Virus record (IMG/VR): IMGVR_UViG_3300036770_003903
Coordinates: 1-36,702 of that record
Source of the DNA: a virus
Lineage: Duplodnaviria > Caudoviricetes
DNA length: 36,702 bases
Strand: one strand, 5' to 3'
Shown here: positions 9,018 to 35,029 of the stretch, piece by piece
How positions within the stretch are numbered: the first letter of the stretch is position 1
Layout of the letters: every line of letters starts with the position of its first letter
The notes under the pieces: generated by a model
The model's input: the letters and a program-made list of their open reading frames with translations, nothing else
Database searches by the model: none
Told to the model about the DNA's origin: nothing
Program-made: the position numbers and the translations under genes

Positions 9018-9218
9018 ATGAAAGTTCATGAATTGATCGAGATCTTACAAGATCACAGTCCCAATGACGAAGTTCAGTTGGCCATTGAGCCCTCTCGTCC
9101 GTTCCATAGTCCTCTTCGTGGGGTAGTCAAGCCATCTGCCGGATCGCCCGTTTTCTTGCTTGAAGACTACGGTTCGCAGCCCTTGAACATCGATGTCTGG
9201 AGGTTGCTCGATGAGTAA
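9018..9218 (+). CDS. Early hypothetical protein
   Basis: ATG at 9018 after AAAGGAG; the MKVHELIEILQ start is typical of small phage ORFs. Confidence 0.7.
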   Translation: MKVHELIEILQDHSPNDEVQLAIEPSRPFHSPLRGVVKPSAGSPVFLLEDYGSQPLNIDVWRLLDE

Positions 9219-9732
9219 TATCGAACTTTGCACCAGTATCGAAGAGCTCAAGAAGTATTCCATGCAAGACTTGTCTTCGTTGTATTCGAAGATCGTCAAA
9301 GCTCATTGTCCAAAATTCAGTGATAAGACTGCTGCAGCCAAGAGGATTCTTCCCTTGCTCGAGCAAAAAAGATCTGAATCCAAGTTGACCATTGTTCCTG
9401 TGCCCGAGCTCTCGTTCGTGTTCAGTCCTGATGGTGGAGCCATTGTTTCAGGCAAGCGTAAGCGTGGTCGTCCGGCTCATCAGCTTGACAAGCGGATCTA
9501 TCACTTCAATTTCGAGCGATTCTATGATCGCGAGCGAGAGTTCGCGCCACAAGCAAAGCAGATCCTTCGTGCTTTGTCTGCAAAGAATTTGACTTCGATC
9601 AGTGAAGCCGAATTGATTCCTCTTGTCTCTGTCAAAACAAAGCAAGATCCTTGGCGCATTTTCCAGTATTATCGTCCGAAGATGATCAGTCGCGGTGTTC
9701 TAAGGATCGAAAATGCGTCGCAATCTGTCTGA
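9211..9732 (+). CDS. Putative DNA-binding early protein (AT-hook-like KRKRGRP plus a C-terminal domain shared with 10860-11090)
   Basis: ATG at 9211 after GGAGG; basic protein whose C-terminal half aligns by eye to the 76-aa ORF. Confidence 0.65.
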   Translation: MSNIELCTSIEELKKYSMQDLSSLYSKIVKAHCPKFSDKTAAAKRILPLLEQKRSESKLTIVPVPELSFVFSPDGGAIVSGKRKRGRPAHQLDKRIYHFNFERFYDREREFAPQAKQILRALSAKNLTSISEAELIPLVSVKTKQDPWRIFQYYRPKMISRGVLRIENASQSV

Positions 9733-10859: not shown

Positions 10860-11090
10860 ATGGTCACTTATCGCTTTATTTCTAACCCAGATCAACCCCT
10901 GGCGAAACAAGCGAAGGCCATTCTGGCGATTATCGCTGATGCTGGCGAAATTGGAAAGCAAGAACTGCTGACCTTGATCGGCCAGCGGATCGAAAAAACT
11001 CGCCAGAAGCCTCAACGTCTGTTGTCCTATTATCAGGGCAGCTTGATTAAAACAGGGGCTATCGAAGCAATCCGTTCCGTGGTACGATGA
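10860..11090 (+). CDS. Small basic protein, paralogue of the 9211-9732 C-terminus (possible winged helix)
   Basis: 76 aa with an AGGAG RBS; shares the pattern QAK.IL...EL...KT.Q.P.R...YY....I..G. Confidence 0.7.
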   Translation: MVTYRFISNPDQPLAKQAKAILAIIADAGEIGKQELLTLIGQRIEKTRQKPQRLLSYYQGSLIKTGAIEAIRSVVR

Positions 11091-11150: not shown

Positions 11151-11993
11151 ATGGCTAACGAAAGAGGTAAGAGTATCGATAAGACATTCCTGTCAATCGA
11201 TAATGCGGAAGAACGCGGATTTTTGCACCGCGACTACATTGCCCATTGTCTCAGATGGACGCACGTAGTCAAGTGGCTGCATCAGGCAGGTCGTTACAAA
11301 ACGGCCCGAATCCTTGATGTTGGTTGCGGCAAAGAAATGCCTTTGGCAAAGTTGATGCACTCATCACGCCTTGGCCCATCTTTCTATGCAGCAGCAGACG
11401 TAAGCAAGCTTGAAATGCCTGCCCAATTTGCCAAGTCTACATGGAAACCAAGCCAACTACTGAGCGAGTGTGATGCAGCAACTCTGAAGGTCGAGGAAAT
11501 GGAACAGCGTCCGAATACGATCGTCTGTTTTGAAGTCGTCGAACACATTGAACCAGAACACTGCCGTCGAATGCTGGCCAACTTTGGTCAATTGCTCGAA
11601 GACGATGGTACTGCCTTCATTTCAACACCTTGCTATGACGCAGATGTTGGTGCAGCAGCTAACCACGTCAACGAAATGACCTACGAAGCTTTTGGCGCTT
11701 TGCTCGAAGACATCGGTTGGCGTGTTGAAGGTCACTGGGGCACATTTGCCTCGATGCGTGACTATAAAGACGAATTGCCACCCGCCCATAAGGAGGTATT
11801 CGATGCCATGCGCGAATACTACGACAGCAACTATCTTGCGACAATCTTTGCTCCTCTGTATCCTAACCGTAGCCGCAACTGCCTATGGCAGCTCAAGTGG
11901 AACCCGGCAGGTCCCAGAATGTTCAAAGACTTGCGCGACGTCGAAGGACGCTGGGGTAGTTCTGACAAATGGCAAGAACTACTGGGCAGCTAG
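11151..11993 (+). CDS. Class I SAM-dependent methyltransferase (small-molecule/UbiG-like motifs)
   Basis: Motif I ILDVGCG, plus VCFEVVEHI, GTAFISTP and NHVNE. No DPPY/NPPY or C5-MTase motif arrangement. Confidence 0.85.
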   Translation: MANERGKSIDKTFLSIDNAEERGFLHRDYIAHCLRWTHVVKWLHQAGRYKTARILDVGCGKEMPLAKLMHSSRLGPSFYAAADVSKLEMPAQFAKSTWKPSQLLSECDAATLKVEEMEQRPNTIVCFEVVEHIEPEHCRRMLANFGQLLEDDGTAFISTPCYDADVGAAANHVNEMTYEAFGALLEDIGWRVEGHWGTFASMRDYKDELPPAHKEVFDAMREYYDSNYLATIFAPLYPNRSRNCLWQLKWNPAGPRMFKDLRDVEGRWGSSDKWQELLGS

Positions 11994-12020
11994 ATCAGCA
12001 GCTAAGTTTGGGTTAGTAAT

Positions 12021-12050
12021 GCTGGCGGTCGTAATGGCCGCCGGCTTTGT
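12021..12050 (+). terminator. GC-rich hairpin; possible weak terminator or processing site
   Basis: GCTGGCGGTC-GTAAT-GGCCGCCGGC-TTTGT, with only a short U tract. Confidence 0.4.
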
Positions 12051-12071
12051 CAGTTATAGAGAGGATAGCAA

Positions 12072-12428
12072 ATGTGGCAAGACATAAAAGCGTTTCATGA
12101 GAAGTTTGGTTTGGCTTATGACGGACCACCTCGTGATCTACCAAAAGACTTGGCGAGTTTTCGCCTTGGATTCATTTTTGAGGAACTAGATGAACTCATC
12201 ATTGCTGAAAATAAAGCCGATCAGCTCGACGCGCTGGTGGACCTTGTCTACGTGGTCATGGGCACTGCTTATTTACAAGGCTTTGACTTCAAAGAAGCGT
12301 GGGACCGCGTCCATAAGGCAAACATGGCGAAGATTCGTGGTGCTTCGAAACGTTCGGAAGGCTATGACGTCATCAAACCAGAAGGGTGGACTGCGCCGGA
12401 CCTACGAGATTTAGCAGGAGAAGCATGA
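12072..12428 (+). CDS. MazG-like (all-alpha) NTP pyrophosphohydrolase
   Basis: Motifs FHEKFG, EELDEL, DALVDLVYV..G, VHKANMAK and KPEGW..PDL. Confidence 0.88.
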   Translation: MWQDIKAFHEKFGLAYDGPPRDLPKDLASFRLGFIFEELDELIIAENKADQLDALVDLVYVVMGTAYLQGFDFKEAWDRVHKANMAKIRGASKRSEGYDVIKPEGWTAPDLRDLAGEA

Positions 12429-12961
12429 TGATCTTTGTACTTGAAGGTCCTGATGCCGTTGGCAAAACAACCTTGGCTCAACACATGCAGCAAGAGCTTG
12501 GTGCAGAGTATTTGCACTTGAGTTATCGCTGGCCAGACCACATGTTTGAGTATCACCATGCAGCTATTCGATGGGCTATTCGTAAAAGCCACAAGAAACC
12601 AGTCATCATTGACAGGTGGTGGCCAAGTGAAGCCTTGTATGCTGCTGAATATCGTGGCGGCAGCAAATGGCCTTGGATCAATCATGCATTAGATGCCATT
12701 GCACAACAAAACAACGTGCTCTACATCTACTGTTTGCCTGAAGATCTTGAATCCTATGCCAAGCGATTCGATCAAGTCAAGCAAGAACGCGAAGAAATGT
12801 ACGACAACACTGTCGGCGTTGCTAAACGTTACCTTGATCTATGGGAAATCTACAAAGCGCGCAGAGATCACATGAGGTATTCCATTGAAACCTATGGAAA
12901 AAACCTTTCTGCGTTTACAAAACTAGCTATGCAAAGGATTACCAAAAATGGCCTCAGTTGA
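12425..12961 (+). CDS. P-loop dNMP kinase (thymidylate-kinase-like)
   Basis: VLEGPDAVGKTT Walker A and IIDRWWPSE..Y; ATG at 12425 overlaps the previous stop. Confidence 0.85.
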   Translation: MMIFVLEGPDAVGKTTLAQHMQQELGAEYLHLSYRWPDHMFEYHHAAIRWAIRKSHKKPVIIDRWWPSEALYAAEYRGGSKWPWINHALDAIAQQNNVLYIYCLPEDLESYAKRFDQVKQEREEMYDNTVGVAKRYLDLWEIYKARRDHMRYSIETYGKNLSAFTKLAMQRITKNGLS

Positions 12962-13697
12962 TACAGAGTGGCTCAAGACAATTGAGCAGTGCATGCGATG
13001 GGGGCAAATCGTGTCTCCACGCGGCAAGAAGATCAAAGAACTTCTTGGTTATCAGACATCGATAAGCATGGAGTTTCCTATCTTGTCAATTCAAGAACGC
13101 AAGCTTGGCTACAAGTTCATGGCAGCTGAAGCAGCTTGGATCTTGAGTGGCGATAACCGAGTCAAGACAATTGCTCCATACAGCAAAGCTATCAGCAACT
13201 TCAGTGATGATGGCTACTTCTACCACGGTGCTTACGGGCCCATGATCCGCGATCAATTGCACTATGTGATTGACGCCTTGAACAGCGATCCTGATACAAG
13301 GCAAGCGGTTTTGACCATTTGGCGTCCAAACCCAAGGCCCAGTAAGGACATTCCATGCACGGTGTCGATTCAGTTCTTGATTCGTAATGGCATGCTGCAT
13401 GTAGTAGATACCATGCGCAGTTCAGATCTGTGGCTTGGTTGGCCTTATGACGTGTTCAACTTCAGTATGCTAGCTCGCTACGTGATCTGTCATTTGAAGG
13501 ATAAACCGTTCCTTGGTTTGTTGCTATTGCAAGCTGGCAGCATGCACATTTATGAAGATCAATGGTCAGCAGCTGAAGAGTTGCTAACAAGTGCTACGCC
13601 AACTGAGGTACCCAATATTCCTTGGTTCGAGCATGGCGATGATTTAGTTGATTGGTTATGGGAGCAGGCAAATGGCAAAGGCATTTTGGAGAGCTGA
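12948..13697 (+). CDS. Thymidylate-synthase-family enzyme, dCMP-type (dCMP hydroxymethylase-like)
   Basis: Motifs RQAV, DIPC137T, MRSSDLWLGWPYD168 and GSMHIY. Asp lies 31 residues after the catalytic Cys, where ThyA has Asn. Confidence 0.85.
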   Translation: MASVDTEWLKTIEQCMRWGQIVSPRGKKIKELLGYQTSISMEFPILSIQERKLGYKFMAAEAAWILSGDNRVKTIAPYSKAISNFSDDGYFYHGAYGPMIRDQLHYVIDALNSDPDTRQAVLTIWRPNPRPSKDIPCTVSIQFLIRNGMLHVVDTMRSSDLWLGWPYDVFNFSMLARYVICHLKDKPFLGLLLLQAGSMHIYEDQWSAAEELLTSATPTEVPNIPWFEHGDDLVDWLWEQANGKGILES

Positions 13698-14280
13698 GCG
13701 AGATGAATATTTCCTGGCTATGGCTGCACTTGTCTCACTTCGTGCGACGTGTAGGCGACGTCGTGTCGGCTGTGTACTTGTGGACGTACATCGCCATGTG
13801 CTTGCTACTGGTTATAACGGTGTCGCTCGTGGCAGGCCTCATTGTCTTGATGAACCATGTAGTGGTGCTGATCTCCCTTCAGGTATGGGGTTGGATCAAT
13901 GCCAGGCTATCCATGCCGAGCAAAACGCCATGCTCCAGTGCCGAGACACACAAGCAATCGACACGGCATACATCACGGTAAGTCCTTGCGTGACTTGCGT
14001 TAAGCTGCTTATGAACACCGGCTGCAAAAGAATAGTGTTTATTGAGAACTACACGCAGCTTGCTGCAAGAGATATATGGACAGGAGAATGGATTCACTAT
14101 GGACCAGTTGACAATGTTTATGCCCAACTCAAAATGGCGGCCGCCAACGGAGTTCCCAAATTTGACGAACGTCAAGAGGATCTCTTTGGACTGCGAAACG
14201 AGAGATCCAAACTTGATGGAGAGAGGGCCAGGAGGAGTACGCTACGACGGGAATGTTGTGGGGGTGAGTCTTGCGACTGA
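13672..14280 (+). CDS. dCMP deaminase family protein
   Basis: Motifs ATC.RRRVGCVLV, TGYNG, HAEQNA and SPCVTC (zinc deaminase). The C-terminal tail overlaps polA. Confidence 0.9.
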   Translation: MAKAFWRAERDEYFLAMAALVSLRATCRRRRVGCVLVDVHRHVLATGYNGVARGRPHCLDEPCSGADLPSGMGLDQCQAIHAEQNAMLQCRDTQAIDTAYITVSPCVTCVKLLMNTGCKRIVFIENYTQLAARDIWTGEWIHYGPVDNVYAQLKMAAANGVPKFDERQEDLFGLRNERSKLDGERARRSTLRRECCGGESCD

Positions 14281-15973
14281 GGACCAGGCTTGGTATTTTC
14301 CTTTTGCCCATGGTGGTGGCGATAACCTTGACAAGCAGCAGGTACTTCGATTCCTTGAAGACGTGCTTGGCAAAGATACGGAGAAAATAGGTGCAAATCT
14401 CATATACGATCTCGAATGGCTTCGCGCAGAGGGCATTCAAGTCAATGGTCAGATCCGCGACATCCAAATCGCGGAGCCTCTTATTGACGAGAACCAGTCT
14501 AGCTACAGCCTTTCGGCGCTTGCTAAGAAGTACCTTGGCGAAGACAAAGATGAAACGCTTCTCAAACAAGCCGCTCATTCTATGGGAGTCGACCCAAAGT
14601 CAGGACTTTGGAAACTGCCGGCCAGGTTCGTTGGTCCCTATGCAGAAGCCGATGCTGCCTTACCTCTCAAGATCTACGACTTGCAACGGAAAATCCTTGA
14701 ACAAGAAGACTTGTGGGACATCTTCCAACTCGAGTCAGACCTTGTGCCAATCATGCTTGACATGCGGTTCAAAGGAGTTCGAGTCGATGTCGACAAAGCC
14801 GAAGAGTTAAATGAACAAGGGTTGAAAGACGAAGTCAGGCTGCTTGCTGAGCTCAAAGATCTTGTTGGCTACGAAATCGATCCATGGTCTGGTGAAGACT
14901 TGAGTCGGGCTTTCAAAGACAAAGAGATCTGGTTTCCTGAAACAGCTAAAGGCAATCCATCATTCACTGGCGATTGGCTTGCTAATCACGAGATGCCTTT
15001 GCCGCAAAAGCTTGCTGAATACCGTAAGCTTAGCAAGATGCGTCGTGACTTTATTGAAGGCATGATTCTCAAGATGAGTCATTCAGGACGAATCCATTGT
15101 CAGTTCCATGCTTTACGCAGAGATGCTGATGGTACTCGTTCAGGACGATTTAGCAGCTCAATGCCTAACTTGCAGCAAGTTCCTGCTCGTGACGAGTATT
15201 GGGGTCCATTGATTCGTGGTCTGTTCTTGCCTGATGAAGGCACTGAATGGGCTAGTTGTGACTATAGCCAGCAAGAACCTAGGATCTTGGTGCATTACGC
15301 AGATTTGCTTGGGCTTAAAGGCAGTGATGAAGCAGTTAGAACTTACGCTGAATCAGCTGATACTGACTTCCATCAAATGGTTGCAGACATGGCAGGCATC
15401 AAGCGTAAGCAAGCTAAGACAGTAAACCTTGGCATGTTCTACGGCATGGGCATCTACAAACTCAGTCAAGAGTTAGGTCTTCCACAAGAAGAAGCCAAGC
15501 CATTGTTTGAGCAGTACCATGCACGAGTTCCTTTTGTTAGGCAACTCAGTCAACGTTGTACTCAATCAGCCACGCAAAAAGGTTGGATCAAGACTTTGCT
15601 AGGTCGCAAAAGACACTTTGATCTTTGGGAACCGGCTGATAGTCAAAACACTTGGCCAAACAGGGAAACACCGCTGCCATTGCAGCATGCCGAGAAAATT
15701 TGGAAAGGGCGCCCATTACGTAGGTCTATGACGCACAAAGCTTTGAATGCTCTTATTCAAGGTGGAGCCGCTGATATGACTAAAAAAGCAATGGTCGATT
15801 TGTACAAAGCAGGAGAAGTCGCACACATTCAGGTTCACGACGAACTTTGTTTCAGTGTGCGCAATCGGGCTCATGGTGAACGAATCAAAGACATCATGGA
15901 GCATTGTGTTAAGATAGCTGTGCCGATCAAAGTCGATCTTGAAATGGGACCGACTTGGGGCGACAGCAAATAA
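14099..15973 (+). CDS. polA: Family A DNA polymerase with 3'-5' exonuclease
   Basis: ExoI LDCET, YAEAD, SGRFSS..PNLQQ, motif A DYSQQEPR, motif B KTVNLGMFYG and motif C VHDE. Confidence 0.95.
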   Translation: MDQLTMFMPNSKWRPPTEFPNLTNVKRISLDCETRDPNLMERGPGGVRYDGNVVGVSLATEDQAWYFPFAHGGGDNLDKQQVLRFLEDVLGKDTEKIGANLIYDLEWLRAEGIQVNGQIRDIQIAEPLIDENQSSYSLSALAKKYLGEDKDETLLKQAAHSMGVDPKSGLWKLPARFVGPYAEADAALPLKIYDLQRKILEQEDLWDIFQLESDLVPIMLDMRFKGVRVDVDKAEELNEQGLKDEVRLLAELKDLVGYEIDPWSGEDLSRAFKDKEIWFPETAKGNPSFTGDWLANHEMPLPQKLAEYRKLSKMRRDFIEGMILKMSHSGRIHCQFHALRRDADGTRSGRFSSSMPNLQQVPARDEYWGPLIRGLFLPDEGTEWASCDYSQQEPRILVHYADLLGLKGSDEAVRTYAESADTDFHQMVADMAGIKRKQAKTVNLGMFYGMGIYKLSQELGLPQEEAKPLFEQYHARVPFVRQLSQRCTQSATQKGWIKTLLGRKRHFDLWEPADSQNTWPNRETPLPLQHAEKIWKGRPLRRSMTHKALNALIQGGAADMTKKAMVDLYKAGEVAHIQVHDELCFSVRNRAHGERIKDIMEHCVKIAVPIKVDLEMGPTWGDSK

Positions 15974-26157: not shown

Positions 26158-28122
26158 TTATGGGTTCATAACCATGTATCGACCACACCAGCCGTTATCG
26201 ATACTGAATTGGGATTCGCCGTTGTTGCCGTGATACAAGACGCGACCATCAGACAGCAAAAGATACTGAGATGTATCTGAGCCGTAAGGATAGCAGGCGT
26301 GATAAAAGTCAACAACAGTTCCGCCAGTCAAGCTTGTATTGCCGTCTTCGCTGGACCAAGGACCTGGCAGCAAAACCGGGCGCTGATAAGCAAAAGCTCC
26401 ATTGTCTGTCCTATACGAACCAAAGTTAACACCGTAACCCATTTGGTAATGGCGGCCAGTTGAATCAATTACTTGCCAACCAGTACTTGATTCACCGTAA
26501 ATATACGGAATAATTTTAACAATGTTGTCTCTTGGAAAAGCACGATCACTATTTGTGGTAATGCCGCCAATATAAGAAAAGTTACGGTTTCTCGTTGTGT
26601 CGCACAAAGTTCCTGGGCGAGTTGGCGTAGAGTTTTCAGTGGTTGTGTTATCACCGTACTGATAGTTACCGTTATAGCCCCAGCACCATAACAGACCATT
26701 AGGCGTGTCAGGAGTGCCACCAATTGCTGCAACAGTTTTATACTCAGAAGTGCCGTTAAGGTGGAATTCACTGAACGTAATGGAGCCGCAGCGGGTGTAA
26801 GCAGACTGGTTAGTCTTGTTGCCATTGCCAAGGTTACCGTTGTTGTTATAACCGGTGCCGTACAACTCGCCATTGTTCTTCATGTAATAAGAACAGCCGT
26901 AGTAGATCCAACCACCTGAGTAGTGAGAACCAACGTGGACTTCAATGTCATAAACACTAGTTGCTCCAGAGATTGTTTGAGGAGCAGTGTAAGCCGTCGT
27001 GTTACCAGTACCAAGTTGACCTTGGGCATTCCAACCCCAAGTATACAGCTGACCAGAAGAATCTACGGCCATAACCATACGAGGTCTTGCATGAATCATG
27101 CGAACGTCGCTGATTGAGCTAACAAGCTGAGGCGTAGTCTGAGGCGAGGTTGTGTTGCCAATGCCGCATTCGCCGTTGCCGTTGAAACCCCAAGTCCAGA
27201 GACGATAGCTGCTGTCAATTGCAAAACAAGTGATGGAGTCTGCTTCACCACCATTCAGTTCCATAGAGGAAGTGAAACCAATAATTTTACAAGACAAGCC
27301 GCCAACAGAAGCATCTGGCCCTAGGTAAGGGACTTTGGTCCAGCTATACACGTCAGTTGTATGGCCCGCCCCTGCTAAACCTTGGTTGTTGTAACCCATA
27401 AAGAATAGGTCACCATCCTTAGTCAAAGCCATAACTGCGCCAGAAGCATTTAATTTATGGATCTGGACAAAATGGTCGCCTGAGCGCATAAGACCAAATT
27501 CACCGCTAAACGACATAAATGCGGTCAAGTCTGAGTGATTGTGGCTGTGTGCGTATTTGCCAGTAATACCGTATTCAGTTGTTCCCCTGGCCATGTATTC
27601 AAACTTATCGTTCAAGAAGCAAGATTGAACCTGACGAGTGTAGCCGCCACGACTATGGGTTCTGGGTCCAAGGCGCGGGTTTGGCAAACCGCTAGCAATA
27701 CGCAAGTTGTTTGTTGCCGGGTCACCGAGCCAAGGTTCATTGCCCGTACCTACAAGATTTGGGGCAGCCCGCCAAGCTCGAGTTGTATTGACATAAATAG
27801 AGTTACCTTGGAAACCTGATTGAGGAGCCCAAGCTACTCCGGAGGCAGTAGCTGTCAAAACAGTGCCGTTTGCTCCAATGCCAAACCGCACAGGATTAGT
27901 TCCATTGTGCGTAGCAAGATCGCCAAGGGTTGTCAAGATGTTAACGCCTTCGACCATCACGTCCCAGTAGGTCGTGTTGGTAGGTGCGTTGCCGGTCGAG
28001 GCTAGTTTACAAATGTAGACGTTGCTGTTGTAACTAACGACGTCGTCGGGTTCATAGGCCGTGGCGCCTGAATAGGCGGCTTTCCACGTGAACTTAATTT
28101 TTCCCAGGTCAAGGGTTGCCAT
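26158..28122 (-). CDS. Tail fibre / receptor-binding protein with RCC1/BLIP-II-like repeats
   Basis: N-terminus LDLGKIKFTW..AY....Y..DDVV.Y, then repeated LxxWGxNxxGxLGxG units. Confidence 0.8.
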   Translation of the reverse strand: MATLDLGKIKFTWKAAYSGATAYEPDDVVSYNSNVYICKLASTGNAPTNTTYWDVMVEGVNILTTLGDLATHNGTNPVRFGIGANGTVLTATASGVAWAPQSGFQGNSIYVNTTRAWRAAPNLVGTGNEPWLGDPATNNLRIASGLPNPRLGPRTHSRGGYTRQVQSCFLNDKFEYMARGTTEYGITGKYAHSHNHSDLTAFMSFSGEFGLMRSGDHFVQIHKLNASGAVMALTKDGDLFFMGYNNQGLAGAGHTTDVYSWTKVPYLGPDASVGGLSCKIIGFTSSMELNGGEADSITCFAIDSSYRLWTWGFNGNGECGIGNTTSPQTTPQLVSSISDVRMIHARPRMVMAVDSSGQLYTWGWNAQGQLGTGNTTAYTAPQTISGATSVYDIEVHVGSHYSGGWIYYGCSYYMKNNGELYGTGYNNNGNLGNGNKTNQSAYTRCGSITFSEFHLNGTSEYKTVAAIGGTPDTPNGLLWCWGYNGNYQYGDNTTTENSTPTRPGTLCDTTRNRNFSYIGGITTNSDRAFPRDNIVKIIPYIYGESSTGWQVIDSTGRHYQMGYGVNFGSYRTDNGAFAYQRPVLLPGPWSSEDGNTSLTGGTVVDFYHACYPYGSDTSQYLLLSDGRVLYHGNNGESQFSIDNGWCGRYMVMNP

Positions 28123-31537: not shown

Positions 31538-34500
31538 TTACCCCTTAGTCAAGCAAACGGCTGCGGCTTGTGCTGCCTTATACAGGGCTTGAGCGTCCCC
31601 TTCGGCTTTAGTTGCGGCTTCAGCTGCTAGTTTCAATTCTGCGTTAATTGCGTTGGCAAACTCAGGATCCACGTTTGCAAGTTGAGCATCAAGAGACTGC
31701 TGCAACTCTTCAAGTTCCTTGGCGACAAAGCTCATTGGATCTGCTTTATTTTTCAATGTATCACCAACTGCGTCAATTGGCTCGCCAAGAATTGGATCGG
31801 GATCTGCCGCGTTGCTTCCACGCTCTTTGTATGCCTTAGCAATCTTCAGCATCTGCGCGTCAGTTTGTTCTATTGGTTTTGCAGAGTTAGGGTCGACAAC
31901 TTCAAGTACAAGTGAAGGTTGACCGCCATCTCCTTTTGGGGGTAAAACTTTTTTAATCCTAAGTACAGTATTTCTTGGAAGAATGGCCTCGGATTCAATT
32001 GCGACATTAGACAAAACTCCTGGCATTAAAGCCTTCATGCCTGGGGGAACTAAAATTTTTGCAATTACTTCGTATTTTGAATCATTAAATCCTTTGGCGG
32101 TTTGGTATGTAAAAGAAGAACTAGTAAATCCAGGGAAATTAACTAACTCACCTTCAAGGACTTTAAGTAAATTATAGGTGTAATCTCCGCCTACAAATGT
32201 CGGTTTGCTTCCAGTCCAAGTAAACGTTTTCAATCCTAATTTTTGAAGCGAATCATTAAAGGTAGTTACCCAAATCCCGCCTCGATTAACTTCTATTCCT
32301 TCTGATAGTGGATCAATTTTTGAAAAAGCCGAATCAAGTAATTCCGTTGCCTTTTGTACGTCTGGGTCTAGAGGAGTTCCTTTGTTACTGTTTTTCCATA
32401 ATTGATCATTAAGTTTTTGATAAAAAGATCCCGTATAACCAACCAGTACACTCAGTTCGTCCTTTGACAACTTACTTTCTAATTCTTTTCGGTACTTGGC
32501 CATGTAGTCCAAAGCATTTGAGGTGCCGGTTGCTTTAAAAATATTTTTTTCTTCTTTAGCAACTTCTTGCGCCACTTTTTTATATGCATCTTCTAAATCG
32601 TATCTGCGATAAGTTAATTTTTCTTTAATGGTTTCGGCAATGTTTTTGTCCATGCCGTGCAACACCGCGGTATCCAAGAGTTTGTAGATTTCGTCCATGG
32701 GAACCCGCAAAATACGGCGGACGGCTTCTTCCATCATTCCAATTGGAATTGCTGAGTCATTAAAAACTTTAGTTGCCGTTGGATTTTTACTGTTACTAAC
32801 AAGAGTTTTAAACTCGGTAATCTCGTCACTAAAATTATTTCCTTTAGGACTTCCTTGTGCTCGATAAAACAAAGCCCCACCGGCATCAATGCGGATAACT
32901 TCACCGTTTGGCAACTGCATCATGTTCCAGTTAGGTGCGTTGCCAACGACGTCCCAGTTACTAAGATATGCATCAATGACAAAGTGCCTAGTAAATTCAA
33001 GCTTTACTTCTGGCGGTAACTTATTAAAGTCATCTGGGCCTATTGTCTTGGCATTGGGATGAAGCAAGTCAGACGAGATACCAATAGTCTTGCCGCCTTC
33101 AGCAGTCACAATAGAAGTTTTAGTAAATGGAACACCAAACCAACGATACAGAGTAGACGCTACCCACTCGTTCATAGCGAGGTTTGGTTCCATGAACTTG
33201 ACGTAAGAGACTGAACCGTCTTTTTTGTCTGAATAGAAACCGCCTTTGTTTGTACCTTTTTGCTCGCCAATTTGCTTGAGCTGAGTTACGTCAGTAGTTT
33301 CGTCGTAGCCGCCAAAGTTTGCATACTTGTCTGCACCAACTTCAAGAAAGTTACCGAGATCTACGTGAGAAGCAGCAGCAATTGCTTCTTTTCCTTGCGG
33401 GTTTAAGTCAGTAAATACTTGATCAGCAGGATCTTGAGAGAACATGTTTTTCATCATGTCCTCTGGACCAAACATTACGTGGTGCTGGTTCTGAGCGGGA
33501 TCAAAAGCAACATTCCCAATCTCAAAGACGTGGGTCATGTTGTTGGCACTAGTCAGCTTATACGTGCCCTTGTAACCTAGGTTTGCGCCTTCTTCAGTGG
33601 CTTTTAAACCGTGTATGGCCAGTAGATCTTTGAGATTGTCCACAATCTTCGACATGTCGATCTGGTTGCCGTCCTTAGCAAAGCCTGGAGAAGTCAACAA
33701 GCTCAAAGGACCACGAGCAGTTTTGCGTACAACCATGACATTGCCATCGGCCATGCGCACATAGAAAGCAATATTGTTGCCCATGCCTTGAGAGATGGCT
33801 TCACTAACGGCTTCAAAGAATTTGTCGTTCTTCAAAGCAGTAACAATTTGTTGTGCAGTAATTTTAGACGTAGGACCAGTAGCTTGATCCATTAAAGCAA
33901 GACTTGTCTCAACGTCTTTTGCAGGGCCAAACTCTTTAACAGGGCTTGCAGCCGCAGCCAATTCAGGATCAGTTACTTTGCCAACCACACCTCCTGGAGG
34001 ATCTGTTGGATTAACTCTTGGCAAAACTTCTGGAGGACCACCGTTCATGTTTAAAGTAACGGGACTTGCAGGACCTGCCCCGTGGGCGGCAATATGGGCA
34101 ACTTCTACGTCTTTGCCATTAGCCAGTTGCTTGATTGAAGTATCTAGAGCAGTCTTATGGCTTTTTGCCCGTATGGCTTTAAAAGCATCGGCTGCTTTGC
34201 CTCCCGCCGCAAACAAACCACCACCTGCAACTGTACCAAATGTGATATTCATCAACGAGTCGTACATGTCGTAGTCGGCTTTTTCTTGTGTCTTGGCAGA
34301 ATAAATAAGCGGCTCAACACCAAGAGATCCTACAAAACCGGCCTCAGCGCCTCTTGCAAACCGAGACAAACTCTTGTAGCCAGACTCAGCCAACTTAGCA
34401 TATCTTGCTTGGCCAACAAGGGGAATAAAGCCGATGGCCAGTCCAACGGGATCTACAATTGCAGCACCCATCTCCAAGCCAAAAGCAATCCCGTTATCGA

Positions 34501-35029
34501 CAAAGCCCTGAGCTCGATCAAGGGTACTGTTTAGACGAACTTCTTCAAGTTTGCGTTTGTGCTGGATAGACGCCACTAAGCTACTGACAGGTTTGTCCCA
34601 GGACAAATGACCTGGAATACCGTACTTAGTATTGGCCTCGTCAGGTTGCATCATTGTGGGCCGCTCAGTCAGCCCAAACTCCTCAAGAGTTGGACGCTGT
34701 CTTGCCCCCATGCTTGAACCACCACGACCGGCATAAGCACGGCCATACTTCTTGCGTAACTCATCGTCTGAGAACTGAGTAATCTCTTCGGCTCGGCGAA
34801 TCTCTCGCATACGAGAGAGTGAGTCAAGACCTGTTTCTTGCCAACCTTTGTCTAAGGCCGCTCCGGCCACTTGACCAGTGGTCGAACGCAACTCATCAAA
34901 CCCAAAGTTGGTAAACCAACGGGGCGGTGCAGACGCGTTGAAGTTCAAGCTGATGTTCTGAGCCTTTTCAGTGAAAGGCTCTAGATCAAGCAAGTCTTCA
35001 GTGTCTGGAGTAATTTTGAGCTTAGCCAT
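31538..35029 (-). CDS. Internal virion protein with inserted kinase-like and ADP-ribosyltransferase domains
   Basis: The N-terminal ~300 aa resemble ejection proteins (DP..LA..FIP..G, hydrophobic Gly/Ala helices). Kinase motifs GTNKGGFY, YVK, NE and NWD..RID. ART motifs YTG, NRG, FTSSS and ESEAILPR. Confidence 0.75.
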   Translation of the reverse strand: MAKLKITPDTEDLLDLEPFTEKAQNISLNFNASAPPRWFTNFGFDELRSTTGQVAGAALDKGWQETGLDSLSRMREIRRAEEITQFSDDELRKKYGRAYAGRGGSSMGARQRPTLEEFGLTERPTMMQPDEANTKYGIPGHLSWDKPVSSLVASIQHKRKLEEVRLNSTLDRAQGFVDNGIAFGLEMGAAIVDPVGLAIGFIPLVGQARYAKLAESGYKSLSRFARGAEAGFVGSLGVEPLIYSAKTQEKADYDMYDSLMNITFGTVAGGGLFAAGGKAADAFKAIRAKSHKTALDTSIKQLANGKDVEVAHIAAHGAGPASPVTLNMNGGPPEVLPRVNPTDPPGGVVGKVTDPELAAAASPVKEFGPAKDVETSLALMDQATGPTSKITAQQIVTALKNDKFFEAVSEAISQGMGNNIAFYVRMADGNVMVVRKTARGPLSLLTSPGFAKDGNQIDMSKIVDNLKDLLAIHGLKATEEGANLGYKGTYKLTSANNMTHVFEIGNVAFDPAQNQHHVMFGPEDMMKNMFSQDPADQVFTDLNPQGKEAIAAASHVDLGNFLEVGADKYANFGGYDETTDVTQLKQIGEQKGTNKGGFYSDKKDGSVSYVKFMEPNLAMNEWVASTLYRWFGVPFTKTSIVTAEGGKTIGISSDLLHPNAKTIGPDDFNKLPPEVKLEFTRHFVIDAYLSNWDVVGNAPNWNMMQLPNGEVIRIDAGGALFYRAQGSPKGNNFSDEITEFKTLVSNSKNPTATKVFNDSAIPIGMMEEAVRRILRVPMDEIYKLLDTAVLHGMDKNIAETIKEKLTYRRYDLEDAYKKVAQEVAKEEKNIFKATGTSNALDYMAKYRKELESKLSKDELSVLVGYTGSFYQKLNDQLWKNSNKGTPLDPDVQKATELLDSAFSKIDPLSEGIEVNRGGIWVTTFNDSLQKLGLKTFTWTGSKPTFVGGDYTYNLLKVLEGELVNFPGFTSSSFTYQTAKGFNDSKYEVIAKILVPPGMKALMPGVLSNVAIESEAILPRNTVLRIKKVLPPKGDGGQPSLVLEVVDPNSAKPIEQTDAQMLKIAKAYKERGSNAADPDPILGEPIDAVGDTLKNKADPMSFVAKELEELQQSLDAQLANVDPEFANAINAELKLAAEAATKAEGDAQALYKAAQAAAVCLTKG

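What the first reader, a model, noticed from the sequence alone, without database searches (positions are those of the whole stretch)
11151..14280. Candidate new DNA base-modification pathway: dCMP-type TS homologue, kinase, dNTPase and deaminase led by a small-molecule SAM methyltransferase
Seen: five co-oriented, mostly overlapping genes run directly into polA: SAM methyltransferase, MazG-like pyrophosphohydrolase, dNMP kinase, thymidylate-synthase homologue and dCMP deaminase. Known: this matches the functional set T4 uses to replace C with 5hmC (gp42 hydroxymethylase, gp1 kinase, gp56 dCTPase, Cd deaminase), after which glucosyltransferases cap the hydroxyl. No glycosyltransferase is visible in this window. 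The extra enzyme is instead a class I methyltransferase with O-/small-molecule-type motifs (LDVGCG, FEVVEH, ISTP) and no DNA-MTase catalytic motif. Inference: the phage makes a C5-modified dCMP (5-hydroxymethyl or 5-hydroxy) that the MTase methylates, before or after replication. The product could be 5-methoxymethylcytosine or 5-methoxycytosine, or an N4-methylated derivative, acting as an anti-restriction/anti-CRISPR base. I know of no characterised phage pathway of this kind, but cannot exclude one.
Basis: partly seen in the sequence, partly recalled or inferred. Interest (0 to 1): 0.9.

Follow-up and report, generated by a model that had tools for sequence, protein, structure and literature searches.

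The report
Phage hydroxymethylcytosine cassette with HEN1-like methyltransferase
An uncultured podovirus carries five genes predicted to swap the cytosine in its DNA for 5-hydroxymethylcytosine, and its HEN1-like methyltransferase, which travels with such genes in many unrelated phages including the cultured AXL3, likely caps that hydroxyl to give 5-methoxymethylcytosine, a DNA base not found in the papers searched.

Summary
The five genes are real and intact. The thymidylate-synthase homologue has Asp at E. coli ThyA positions 143, 169 and 177, the published signature of a dCMP hydroxymethylase. That argues against a methylase or hydroxylase, so 5-methoxycytosine is unlikely. The methyltransferase keeps the five conserved HEN1 active-site residues, so its 'small-molecule' motifs do not exclude a nucleic-acid substrate. 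Of 180 distinct family members, 161 have a TS homologue nearby. All 159 readable ones are hydroxymethylase-type, spread over divergent clades, one close to T4 gp42. In sister cassettes the same gene slot holds a carbamoyltransferase (a family shown to cap 5hmC) or a glycosyltransferase-like gene. Cultured phage AXL3 has the same cassette, and its DNA is cut only by A/T-site enzymes. Best reading: pre-replicative hmC plus O-methylation to 5-methoxymethylcytosine (about 0.55). No chemistry is shown. Whether methylation happens on the nucleotide or on DNA is open. Exclusion of glycosyltransferases is not absolute, since distant members are fused to GT-like or C5-methylase-like domains. The scan had already noted this cassette on seven other genomes. 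New variant of a known kind, testable on AXL3 DNA.

The parts
11151..11993 (+). Class I SAM methyltransferase of a phage family with a HEN1-type active site (R35, E128, E131, H132, H172); predicted 5hmC O-methyltransferase
   Evidence: PF13489; family profile best PDB hits HEN1 1e-13 and bacterial Hen1; AF2 model pLDDT 92.6; VIA-align ChlM Z18.7, CmoM entry 4htf Z18.2, HEN1 Z17.0, ToxA-like Z17.0; residues kept in 255-257 of 258 sequences
12072..12428 (+). MazG-like (DR2231-type) dNTP pyrophosphohydrolase; predicted to remove dCTP and/or dUTP
   Evidence: PF01503, phrog_671, DR2231 E 1.5e-8
12425..12961 (+). P-loop dNMP kinase, 178 aa; predicted to phosphorylate hm-dCMP; lacks the C-terminal UDG-like domain that most relatives carry
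   Evidence: phrog_761; relatives ~330 aa; extra domain matches a Pfam-UDG protein, hhalign prob 94.5; short form bridged in an independent contig
12948..13697 (+). Thymidylate-synthase homologue with dCMP-hydroxymethylase signature (D134, C137, D160, D168 = ThyA 143, 146, 169, 177)
   Evidence: PF00303; best PDB hit CMP 5-hydroxymethylase E 9e-25; residues; diagnostic positions from PMC13326640
13672..14280 (+). dCMP deaminase; predicted to turn surplus dCMP into dUMP for host thymidylate synthesis; 3' tail overlaps polA
   Evidence: PF00383, phrog_174; start read from sequence
14099..15973 (+). Family A DNA polymerase directly downstream; would incorporate the modified dCTP
   Evidence: PF00476 and PF01612; below the DpoZ cut-off, 330 of 500 bits
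10860..11090 (+). Small winged-helix-like protein just upstream, conserved there in this clade; role in the pathway not shown (context only)
   Evidence: within 1.5 kb upstream of the MTase in 120 loci, not de-duplicated; paralogue of the 9193-9732 C-terminus, hhalign prob 99.5; Atlas structure neighbours PadR/PriA

Best explanation
The cassette is predicted to replace cytosine in the phage DNA with 5-hydroxymethylcytosine before replication, and the HEN1-like methyltransferase likely O-methylates that hydroxyl to give 5-methoxymethylcytosine. Steps: TS homologue, dCMP + methylene-THF + water to hm-dCMP (inferred from residues shown here). The kinase plus host NDK give hm-dCTP (inferred). The PPase destroys dCTP/dUTP and the deaminase sends the surplus dCMP to dUMP and then dTMP through host ThyA (inferred, as in T4). 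polA incorporates the base. The MTase, using SAM and probably a divalent metal held by E128/E131/H132/H172, methylates the 5-CH2OH (inferred). I lean slightly (about 55:45) to action on DNA after replication rather than on the nucleotide. The cap would shield the genome from type II restriction and from 5hmC-recognising nucleases.
For: TS residues D143/C146/D169/D177 match the published hydroxymethylase signature (PMC13326640 passages and section 28); best PDB hit is CMP 5-hydroxymethylase. Of 180 MTase clusters (95% identity, 304 MTase-anchored loci, window included), 161 have a TS in the fetched DNA: 158 D/D/D, 1 E/D/D, 2 with the motif cut off. These TS genes fall into 15 clusters at 45% identity. 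One clade matches T4 dCMP hydroxymethylase at E 2e-68 and lies 10 nt from the MTase (L045). MTase and TS reassort: L019 has MTase 73% / TS 27% identity to the window, AXL3 has 31% / 50%, which points to a shared product rather than mere linkage. Among 60 TS-anchored clusters the upstream slot holds the MTase in 47, a carbamoyltransferase in 2 and a GT-like gene in 1; a phage carbamoyltransferase is shown to cap 5hmC in DNA and hm-dCTP (PMC8670742 section 12). HEN1 R701/E796/E799/H800 align to R35/E128/E131/H132, and H172 aligns to the Hen1 HxxEW histidine; all five are kept in 255-257 of 258 sequences. AXL3 has the same cassette, no GT in its annotation or in 14 of its proteins scanned, and its DNA was cut by only 2 of 37 enzymes, both with A/T-only sites (PMC7504290 passages). 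Some relatives carry a separate ThyX or Asn-type TS, so the Asp enzyme is not their dTMP source.
Against: No activity or nucleoside analysis exists for any member. Plain 5hmC or 5mC could also explain AXL3's restriction resistance. Structural neighbours do not fix the chemistry: O- and N-methyltransferases lie within 2 Z units, and Foldseek's top hits are generic small-molecule MTases. The same TS clade works without the MTase in T7-like pelagiphages HTVC119P/200P and in 13 of 60 TS-anchored clusters (4 of them too short to judge). 19 of 180 MTase clusters had no TS in the fetched DNA: 14 were cut within 2 kb; whole-record checks found a TS for 3 of the other 5 and none in the remaining fragments. 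Distant members are fused to C5-methylase-like (92 of 112) or GT-like (16 of 112) domains, so in those the MTase might act on a carboxyl or a sugar instead. The standalone protein is acidic (pI 5.7) with no DNA-binding domain. In MetaGPA, Methyltransf_23 is only nominally enriched in modified contigs (27 vs 1436, p 0.006, corrected p 1).
Confidence: 0.55

Rival explanations
1. The DNA carries plain 5hmC and the methyltransferase does something else in the same programme, for example HEN1-like methylation of RNA or DNA ends, or methylation of a protein or pool metabolite.
For: HEN1 is the best sequence-profile match. The TS + kinase pair occurs without any recognised capping gene in pelagiphages. 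No product has been measured.
Against: 159 of 159 readable TS partners are hydroxymethylase-type across divergent clades. No Pnkp/RNA-ligase partner appeared among the neighbour families scanned. The MTase shares a slot with known or likely hmC-capping enzymes.
Confidence: 0.2
2. The MTase acts on hmC or a derivative but gives another product: N4-methyl-5hmC (isobaric), another SAM-derived alkyl group, or, in the fused subfamilies, a methyl ester or methylated sugar.
For: N-methyltransferases score almost as well in the fold search. CmoM, a tRNA carboxyl methyltransferase, is a top structural neighbour. The fused C5-methylase-like domains show Arg in motif X, recalling CmoX R350 (PMC12783734 section 13); the equivalence was not aligned.
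Against: The HEN1-type residue set favours O-methylation. N4-methyl beside a C5 substituent hinders Watson-Crick pairing (recalled). The window has no C5-like, GT-like or carbamoyltransferase gene, and no CmoA-like neighbour was seen.
Confidence: 0.15
3. The TS homologue makes 5-methyl-dCMP (Xp12-like) or 5-hydroxy-dCMP, the latter methylated to 5-methoxycytosine.
For: The 143/169 rules are correlations (PMC13326640). The window's TS clade is only distantly related to any assayed enzyme (best solved hit E 9e-25).
Against: D143 argues against a methylase and D169 against a hydroxylase. No DHFR appeared among the scanned neighbours. A near-T4 hydroxymethylase pairs with the same MTase family.
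Confidence: 0.07
4. The genes only supply dTTP (deaminase, TS, kinase), as the AXL3 authors proposed, and the DNA is unmodified.
For: The PPase resembles DR2231, recalled as a dUTPase. The AXL3 and PW916 papers read the cluster as thymidylate synthesis.
Against: Asp177 switches ThyA to dCMP (PMC8670742). AXL3 has a separate ThyX, and its DNA resists all 35 enzymes with C/G in their sites.
Confidence: 0.03

Closest known systems
T4 hmC / glucosyl-hmC pathway (gp42, gp1, gp56, Cd, alpha/beta-GT)
   Same: Same four pre-replicative functions; TS signature D143/D169/D177; one MTase-linked TS clade matches T4 dCMP hydroxymethylase at E 2e-68
   Different: Podovirus with polA; DR2231-type PPase; the window's TS is MilA-like in sequence; no GT detected; a SAM MTase occupies the capping slot
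5-carbamoyloxymethylcytosine pathway (MetaGPA, PMC8670742)
   Same: TS + PRA-PH PPase + dCMP deaminase + one capping transferase; carbamoyltransferases sit in the MTase's slot in L181 and L225
   Different: The capping group would be methyl from SAM, not carbamoyl; never seen together with the MTase in 180 clusters (two-sequence profile, low sensitivity)
HEN1 / bacterial Hen1 RNA 2'-O-methyltransferases
   Same: Best family-profile matches; R701/E796/E799/H800/H860 equivalents conserved; Z 17.0, rmsd 2.8 over 187 residues
   Different: No dsRNA-binding or ligase-activating domain, no Pnkp partner seen, far below the Hen1 cut-off (18.6 of 340 bits); the gene context is DNA precursor synthesis
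CmoM (tRNA cmo5U methyltransferase) and phage CmoX/CmoY
   Same: CmoM O-methylates a C5 side chain of a pyrimidine in a nucleic acid and is a top fold match; phages are known to repurpose tRNA-modifying enzymes for DNA (PMC12783734)
   Different: CmoM makes an ester on a carboxyl; no CmoA/CmoX genes in the window
5-hydroxycytosine pathways of RB69, DLP3 and RL38JI (PMC13326640)
   Same: TS homologue acting on dCMP, then capped
   Different: Those have D169N; this one keeps D169

Membership tests
dCMP hydroxymethylase (T4 gp42 / MilA type) | Catalytic Cys146 and Asp at 177 (dCMP specificity) | tested here: met
   C137, D168
dCMP hydroxymethylase (T4 gp42 / MilA type) | Acidic residue at 143 and Asp kept at 169 | tested here: met
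   D134, D160; rule from PMC13326640
dCMP hydroxymethylase (T4 gp42 / MilA type) | Forms hm-dCMP from dCMP and methylene-THF | not testable with these tools
   needs an enzyme assay
T4 glucosyl-hmC system | DNA glucosyltransferase | tested here: inconclusive
   none detected in the window or in two near-complete relatives, but divergent GTs escape Pfam (the GT-like domain found here has no Pfam GT hit)
5-hydroxy-dCMP synthase | D169N | tested here: not met
   D160 retained; all 159 readable partners keep D169
dCMP methylase (5mC, Xp12 type) | Hydrophobic residue at 143 | tested here: not met
   D134
Canonical thymidylate synthase ThyA | Asn177 and family score | tested here: not met
   Asp168; all NCBIfam TS scores below cut-off
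HEN1 / Hen1 | Active-site R701, E796, E799, H800, H860 | tested here: met
   R35, E128, E131, H132, H172; the H860 match runs through bacterial Hen1; the metal role is recalled
HEN1 / Hen1 | Full-length family score and RNA-binding or Pnkp-partner architecture | tested here: not met
   TIGR04074 18.6 of 340 bits; single-domain model; no Pnkp among scanned neighbours; partner feature recalled
HEN1 / Hen1 | Methylates the 2'-OH of a 3'-terminal ribose | not testable with these tools
   needs an assay
DNA methyltransferases (C5, N4, N6) | PC or (D/N/S)PP(Y/F/W) catalytic motif and family hit | tested here: not met
   no such motif in the 280-aa sequence; no PF00145 or PF01555 hit
UbiG | Family score above cut-off | tested here: not met
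   TIGR01983 34 of 102.95 bits
dCTPase (gp56 role) | Hydrolyses dCTP but not hm-dCTP | not testable with these tools
   fold family DR2231 / PRA-PH only

The most novel reading that the evidence does not exclude
A HEN1-type, metal-assisted O-methyltransferase has been repurposed by a widespread, mostly uncultured phage family to write 5-methoxymethylcytosine in place of C across the genome: a new DNA base, the smallest neutral cap on 5hmC, and a swappable module alongside sugar and carbamoyl caps. The enzyme would be the first 5hmC O-methyltransferase, and virions of AXL3 and PW916 already in laboratory collections would contain the base.
Probability: 0.5. Interest if true: 0.85.

Novelty: new variant of a known kind. 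Interest (0 to 1): 0.7.

Why it matters
It would add a new base to DNA and a new chemistry (methyl ether) to the hmC caps known so far (sugars, carbamoyl). It would explain the unexplained C/G-site restriction resistance of phage AXL3. It would define a large virus-associated enzyme family (324 clusters at 50% identity with E <= 1e-30) that is now mis-annotated as UbiG or 'capping protein'. A 5hmC-specific methyltransferase could also serve as a reagent for labelling 5hmC with SAM analogues. One LC-MS run on a cultured phage decides it.

Tried and rejected
Literature: no paper in the library names the base or enzyme. Searches for methoxymethylcytosine / 5-methoxycytosine and variants gave 0; '5-methoxymethyl' + cytosine + DNA gave 3 listings unrelated by title and abstract, not opened; Axeltriavirus / 5hmC O-methyltransferase phrases gave 0; broader searches gave only known pathways. 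A 2013 computational survey of DNA-modifying systems and a 2021 review were not held. Subscription journals, bioRxiv supplements and the supplements of PMC13326640 were not seen and may mention this family. Single-sequence phmmer of the MTase against the PDB found nothing below E 0.07; only family profiles reach HEN1. No DNA methyltransferase was listed among the top fold matches, which does not exclude the family by itself. A single-sequence fold of the GT-like protein failed (pLDDT 32), so 'GT-like' rests on an Atlas lead (score 0.96, PF13524 in 20% of that cluster). The helical linker domain in the fused proteins is not detectably related to the window's upstream small protein (hhalign prob < 1). 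Palindrome counts: the window shows little avoidance (6-mers 1072 observed vs 1110 expected; pelagiphages about 0.85), which is too weak to use. Promoter and terminator scans were at chance level (12 vs 10.5; 10 vs 9.9). No RNA holder was listed among sequencing runs. Cellular genomes: 4 loci among 185,579 species, all short or phage-like MAG contigs (pattern-limited). The L309 MAG holds an Asn-type TS on another contig. The metagenome-contig collection was not surveyed. No complex prediction was run, since binding is not claimed and TS partners are interchangeable. Neighbour scans covered only loci up to L310: 73 of 76 recurring families and 145 of 221 singleton ORFs. They gave three GT hits 3.7-8.7 kb from the MTase (L227, L268, L277), a UDP-glucose dehydrogenase plus epimerase beside L055, and no DHFR or carbamoyltransferase.
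Full report
Observation. The window is a 36,702-nt virus record of podovirus type: capsid, head-tail connector and terminase on the left, internal-virion and tail genes on the right, and a + strand replication arm. Pfam, PHROGs and NCBIfam agree on each fold. Four of five junctions overlap. A contig from a different study covers 11788-14600 without gaps. No glycosyltransferase was detected in the window. The ~3.5 kb missing from it holds tail, internal-virion and acetyltransferase genes in two relatives that are 98-100% complete.

The TS homologue. PMC13326640 (I read the abstract, introduction, search passages and section 28) gives three diagnostic positions in E. coli ThyA numbering: Asp177 for dCMP, an acidic residue at 143 for a non-methyl product, and Asn169 for hydroxylases. 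The window protein has D134, C137, D160 and D168, the hydroxymethylase pattern. Its best solved relative is CMP 5-hydroxymethylase (E 9e-25), ahead of all thymidylate synthases. The rule is a correlation, and this clade has not been assayed.

The methyltransferase family. It is large: 1,357 proteins at E <= 0.001 among 2,461 candidates, and 324 representatives at E <= 1e-30 in the 50%-identity library. It is nearly confined to viruses. A pattern scan of 185,579 prokaryote genomes gave 4 loci, all MAG contigs. Among 50,697 GenBank phage records only 5 hold it, with three different queries: AXL3 (twice), PW916 and two Manatee Spring genomes. All four genomes have the order MTase-PPase-kinase-TS-deaminase, in both podo- and siphoviruses. 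The AF2 model is confident (pLDDT 92.6) and shows a single class I domain. VIA-align ranks ChlM (Z 18.7, rmsd 2.9, 188 aligned), entry 4htf (CmoM by my recall; Z 18.2, 4.6, 212), HEN1 (17.0, 2.8, 187) and a toxoflavin N-methyltransferase (17.0) close together, so the fold alone does not give the chemistry. A diverse family profile ranks HEN1 first (1e-13), then bacterial Hen1 and UbiG. In that alignment R35, E128, E131 and H132 fall on HEN1 R701, E796, E799 and H800 (one constant 8-residue offset), and H172 falls on the Hen1 HxxEW histidine. PMC1397878 (passages) lists these as HEN1's conserved active-site residues, notes that the E796 glutamate is rare in small-molecule enzymes, and places HEN1 in the UbiG-like branch. 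The five residues are kept in 255-257 of 258 distinct family sequences. That they bind a divalent metal which activates a hydroxyl is recalled from the HEN1 structure literature.

Co-occurrence. I pooled 304 loci fetched with MTase queries (each scan kept its best 80, and TS-anchored loci were left out), giving 180 clusters at 95% identity. 161 have a TS in the fetched DNA: 158 D/D/D, 1 E/D/D and 2 with the motif cut off. Of the 19 without, 14 end within 2 kb of the MTase. For the other five, whole-record searches found a TS in three: two clear D/D/D and one Asp-type read by eye across an insertion. The other two are fragments 12% and 44% complete. The partners are diverse (15 clusters at 45% identity) and gene order varies. 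One clade matches T4 dCMP hydroxymethylase at E 2e-68 and sits 10 nt from an MTase 50% identical to the window's. MTase and TS identities to the window are uncoupled (73%/27% in L019, 31%/50% in AXL3), so the link follows the hydroxymethylase function rather than ancestry or a specific protein pair. In the reverse survey (80 TS-anchored loci, 60 clusters, all D/D/D), 47 carry the MTase, 2 a carbamoyltransferase in the same slot, 1 a GT-like gene, 1 a PLP enzyme with two unknowns, 3 (T7-like) only kinase + TS, 2 nothing recognised, and 4 were too short. This set is biased toward close relatives. A phage carbamoyltransferase is shown to cap 5hmC in DNA and on hm-dCTP (PMC8670742, passages and section 12). 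The slot therefore behaves as an exchangeable hmC-capping position.

Cultured evidence. AXL3 DNA was cut by 2 of 37 restriction enzymes, both with A/T-only sites; the authors read the cluster as thymidylate synthesis and left the modification open (PMC7504290 passages). AXL3 has a separate ThyX and no annotated GT. The PW916 paper (passages) did no restriction test. This shows modification at C or G sites but not which base.

Results against a simple picture. A search for longer forms listed 120 of 132 hits; 112 hold the full MTase domain, 92 fused to a C5-cytosine-methylase-like domain and 16 to a domain that the Atlas places near viral glycosyltransferases. The three C5-MTase fusions seen in context still lie beside D/D/D TS genes, and C5-like or GT-like genes also occur in TS cassettes without the MTase. 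Among MTase-anchored clusters, C5-like genes occur in 12 of 180 and GT-like in 1 of 180. Exclusion of glycosyltransferases is thus the rule near the window's clade but not absolute, and in fused subfamilies the acceptor may differ. These fusions to DNA-acting folds favour post-replicative action. Single fusions to the PPase (P0251) and the kinase (L255), and the acidic surface (pI 5.7; family median 6.1), favour a free nucleotide. The timing is unresolved. The PPase resembles DR2231, so dCTP removal is inferred from context. MetaGPA shows only nominal enrichment of Methyltransf_23.

Mechanism and verdict. A pre-replicative hmC pathway is about 0.9 likely; an MTase cap giving 5-methoxymethylcytosine about 0.55. 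It works like the T4 and carbamoyl-hmC systems and has a HEN1-type active site, but it is not a member of the HEN1, UbiG or DNA-MTase families by the tests listed. No paper in the searched library describes the base or enzyme; two relevant overviews and several supplements could not be seen. The scan noted this cassette on seven other genomes, with the same reading; those notes are not independent support, and my reading was on record before I opened them. New variant of a known kind; interest 0.7, because a candidate new DNA base can be tested at once in a cultured phage.

Noticed in passing
P0260, P0270-P0380; L323, L358, L363 (fused); L138:10867-11901, L326, L332, L371, L383 (adjacent); L328-L330, L392, L393, L397 (no MTase in the fetched DNA): A C5-cytosine-methylase-like family with altered motifs (ESV in motif VI, mostly Arg in motif X) sits inside hmC cassettes, often fused to this MTase. 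Its reaction is unknown; it may act on hmC in DNA.
   Followed up: partly
P0276, P0282, P0289, P0290, P0294, P0303; L223:1167-2174, L327:11158-12276, L328:5722-6801: A ~340-aa domain without a Pfam GT hit, placed near viral glycosyltransferases by the Atlas, is fused to the MTase or stands in its slot.
   Followed up: partly
L220:5754-9001: An Asp-type TS cassette in which a PLP-dependent enzyme and two unknown proteins replace the MTase; possibly an amino-acid-type hypermodification of cytosine.
   Followed up: no
window 12425-12961 vs L010:9428-10429, AXL3 gp29: Most relatives' kinases carry a C-terminal UDG-superfamily-like domain (72 of 180 clusters); the window has lost it. A similar-looking domain precedes the MTase in P0135 (by eye).
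   Followed up: partly
MH598806.1 and MH598801.1 (HTVC119P, HTVC200P), gp15-16 and gp13-14: Cultured integrase-bearing T7-like pelagiphages carry kinase + D/D/D TS with no recognised PPase, deaminase or capping gene; they may contain plain or partial 5hmC.
   Followed up: partly
L300:11320-12138: An ORF with a SAM-synthetase N-terminal Pfam hit lies right after the MTase (family seen in 2 clusters), which would fit heavy SAM use.
   Followed up: no
L055:2972-4752: UDP-glucose dehydrogenase and an epimerase follow the TS-MTase-deaminase trio in the T4-like clade.
   Followed up: no
window 31538-35029 (-): A 1163-aa internal virion protein with an Alt-like ADP-ribosyltransferase domain near its C-terminus.
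   Followed up: no
window 9193-9732 and 10860-11090: Two paralogous winged-helix-like proteins flank a DUF932 gene upstream of the cassette.
   Followed up: partly
window 26158-28122 (-): A tail-fibre-like protein with RCC1 repeats.
   Followed up: no
window 14099-14280: The last ~60 codons of the deaminase overlap polA in another frame; some relatives end earlier (L032), so the tail is probably dispensable.
   Followed up: partly
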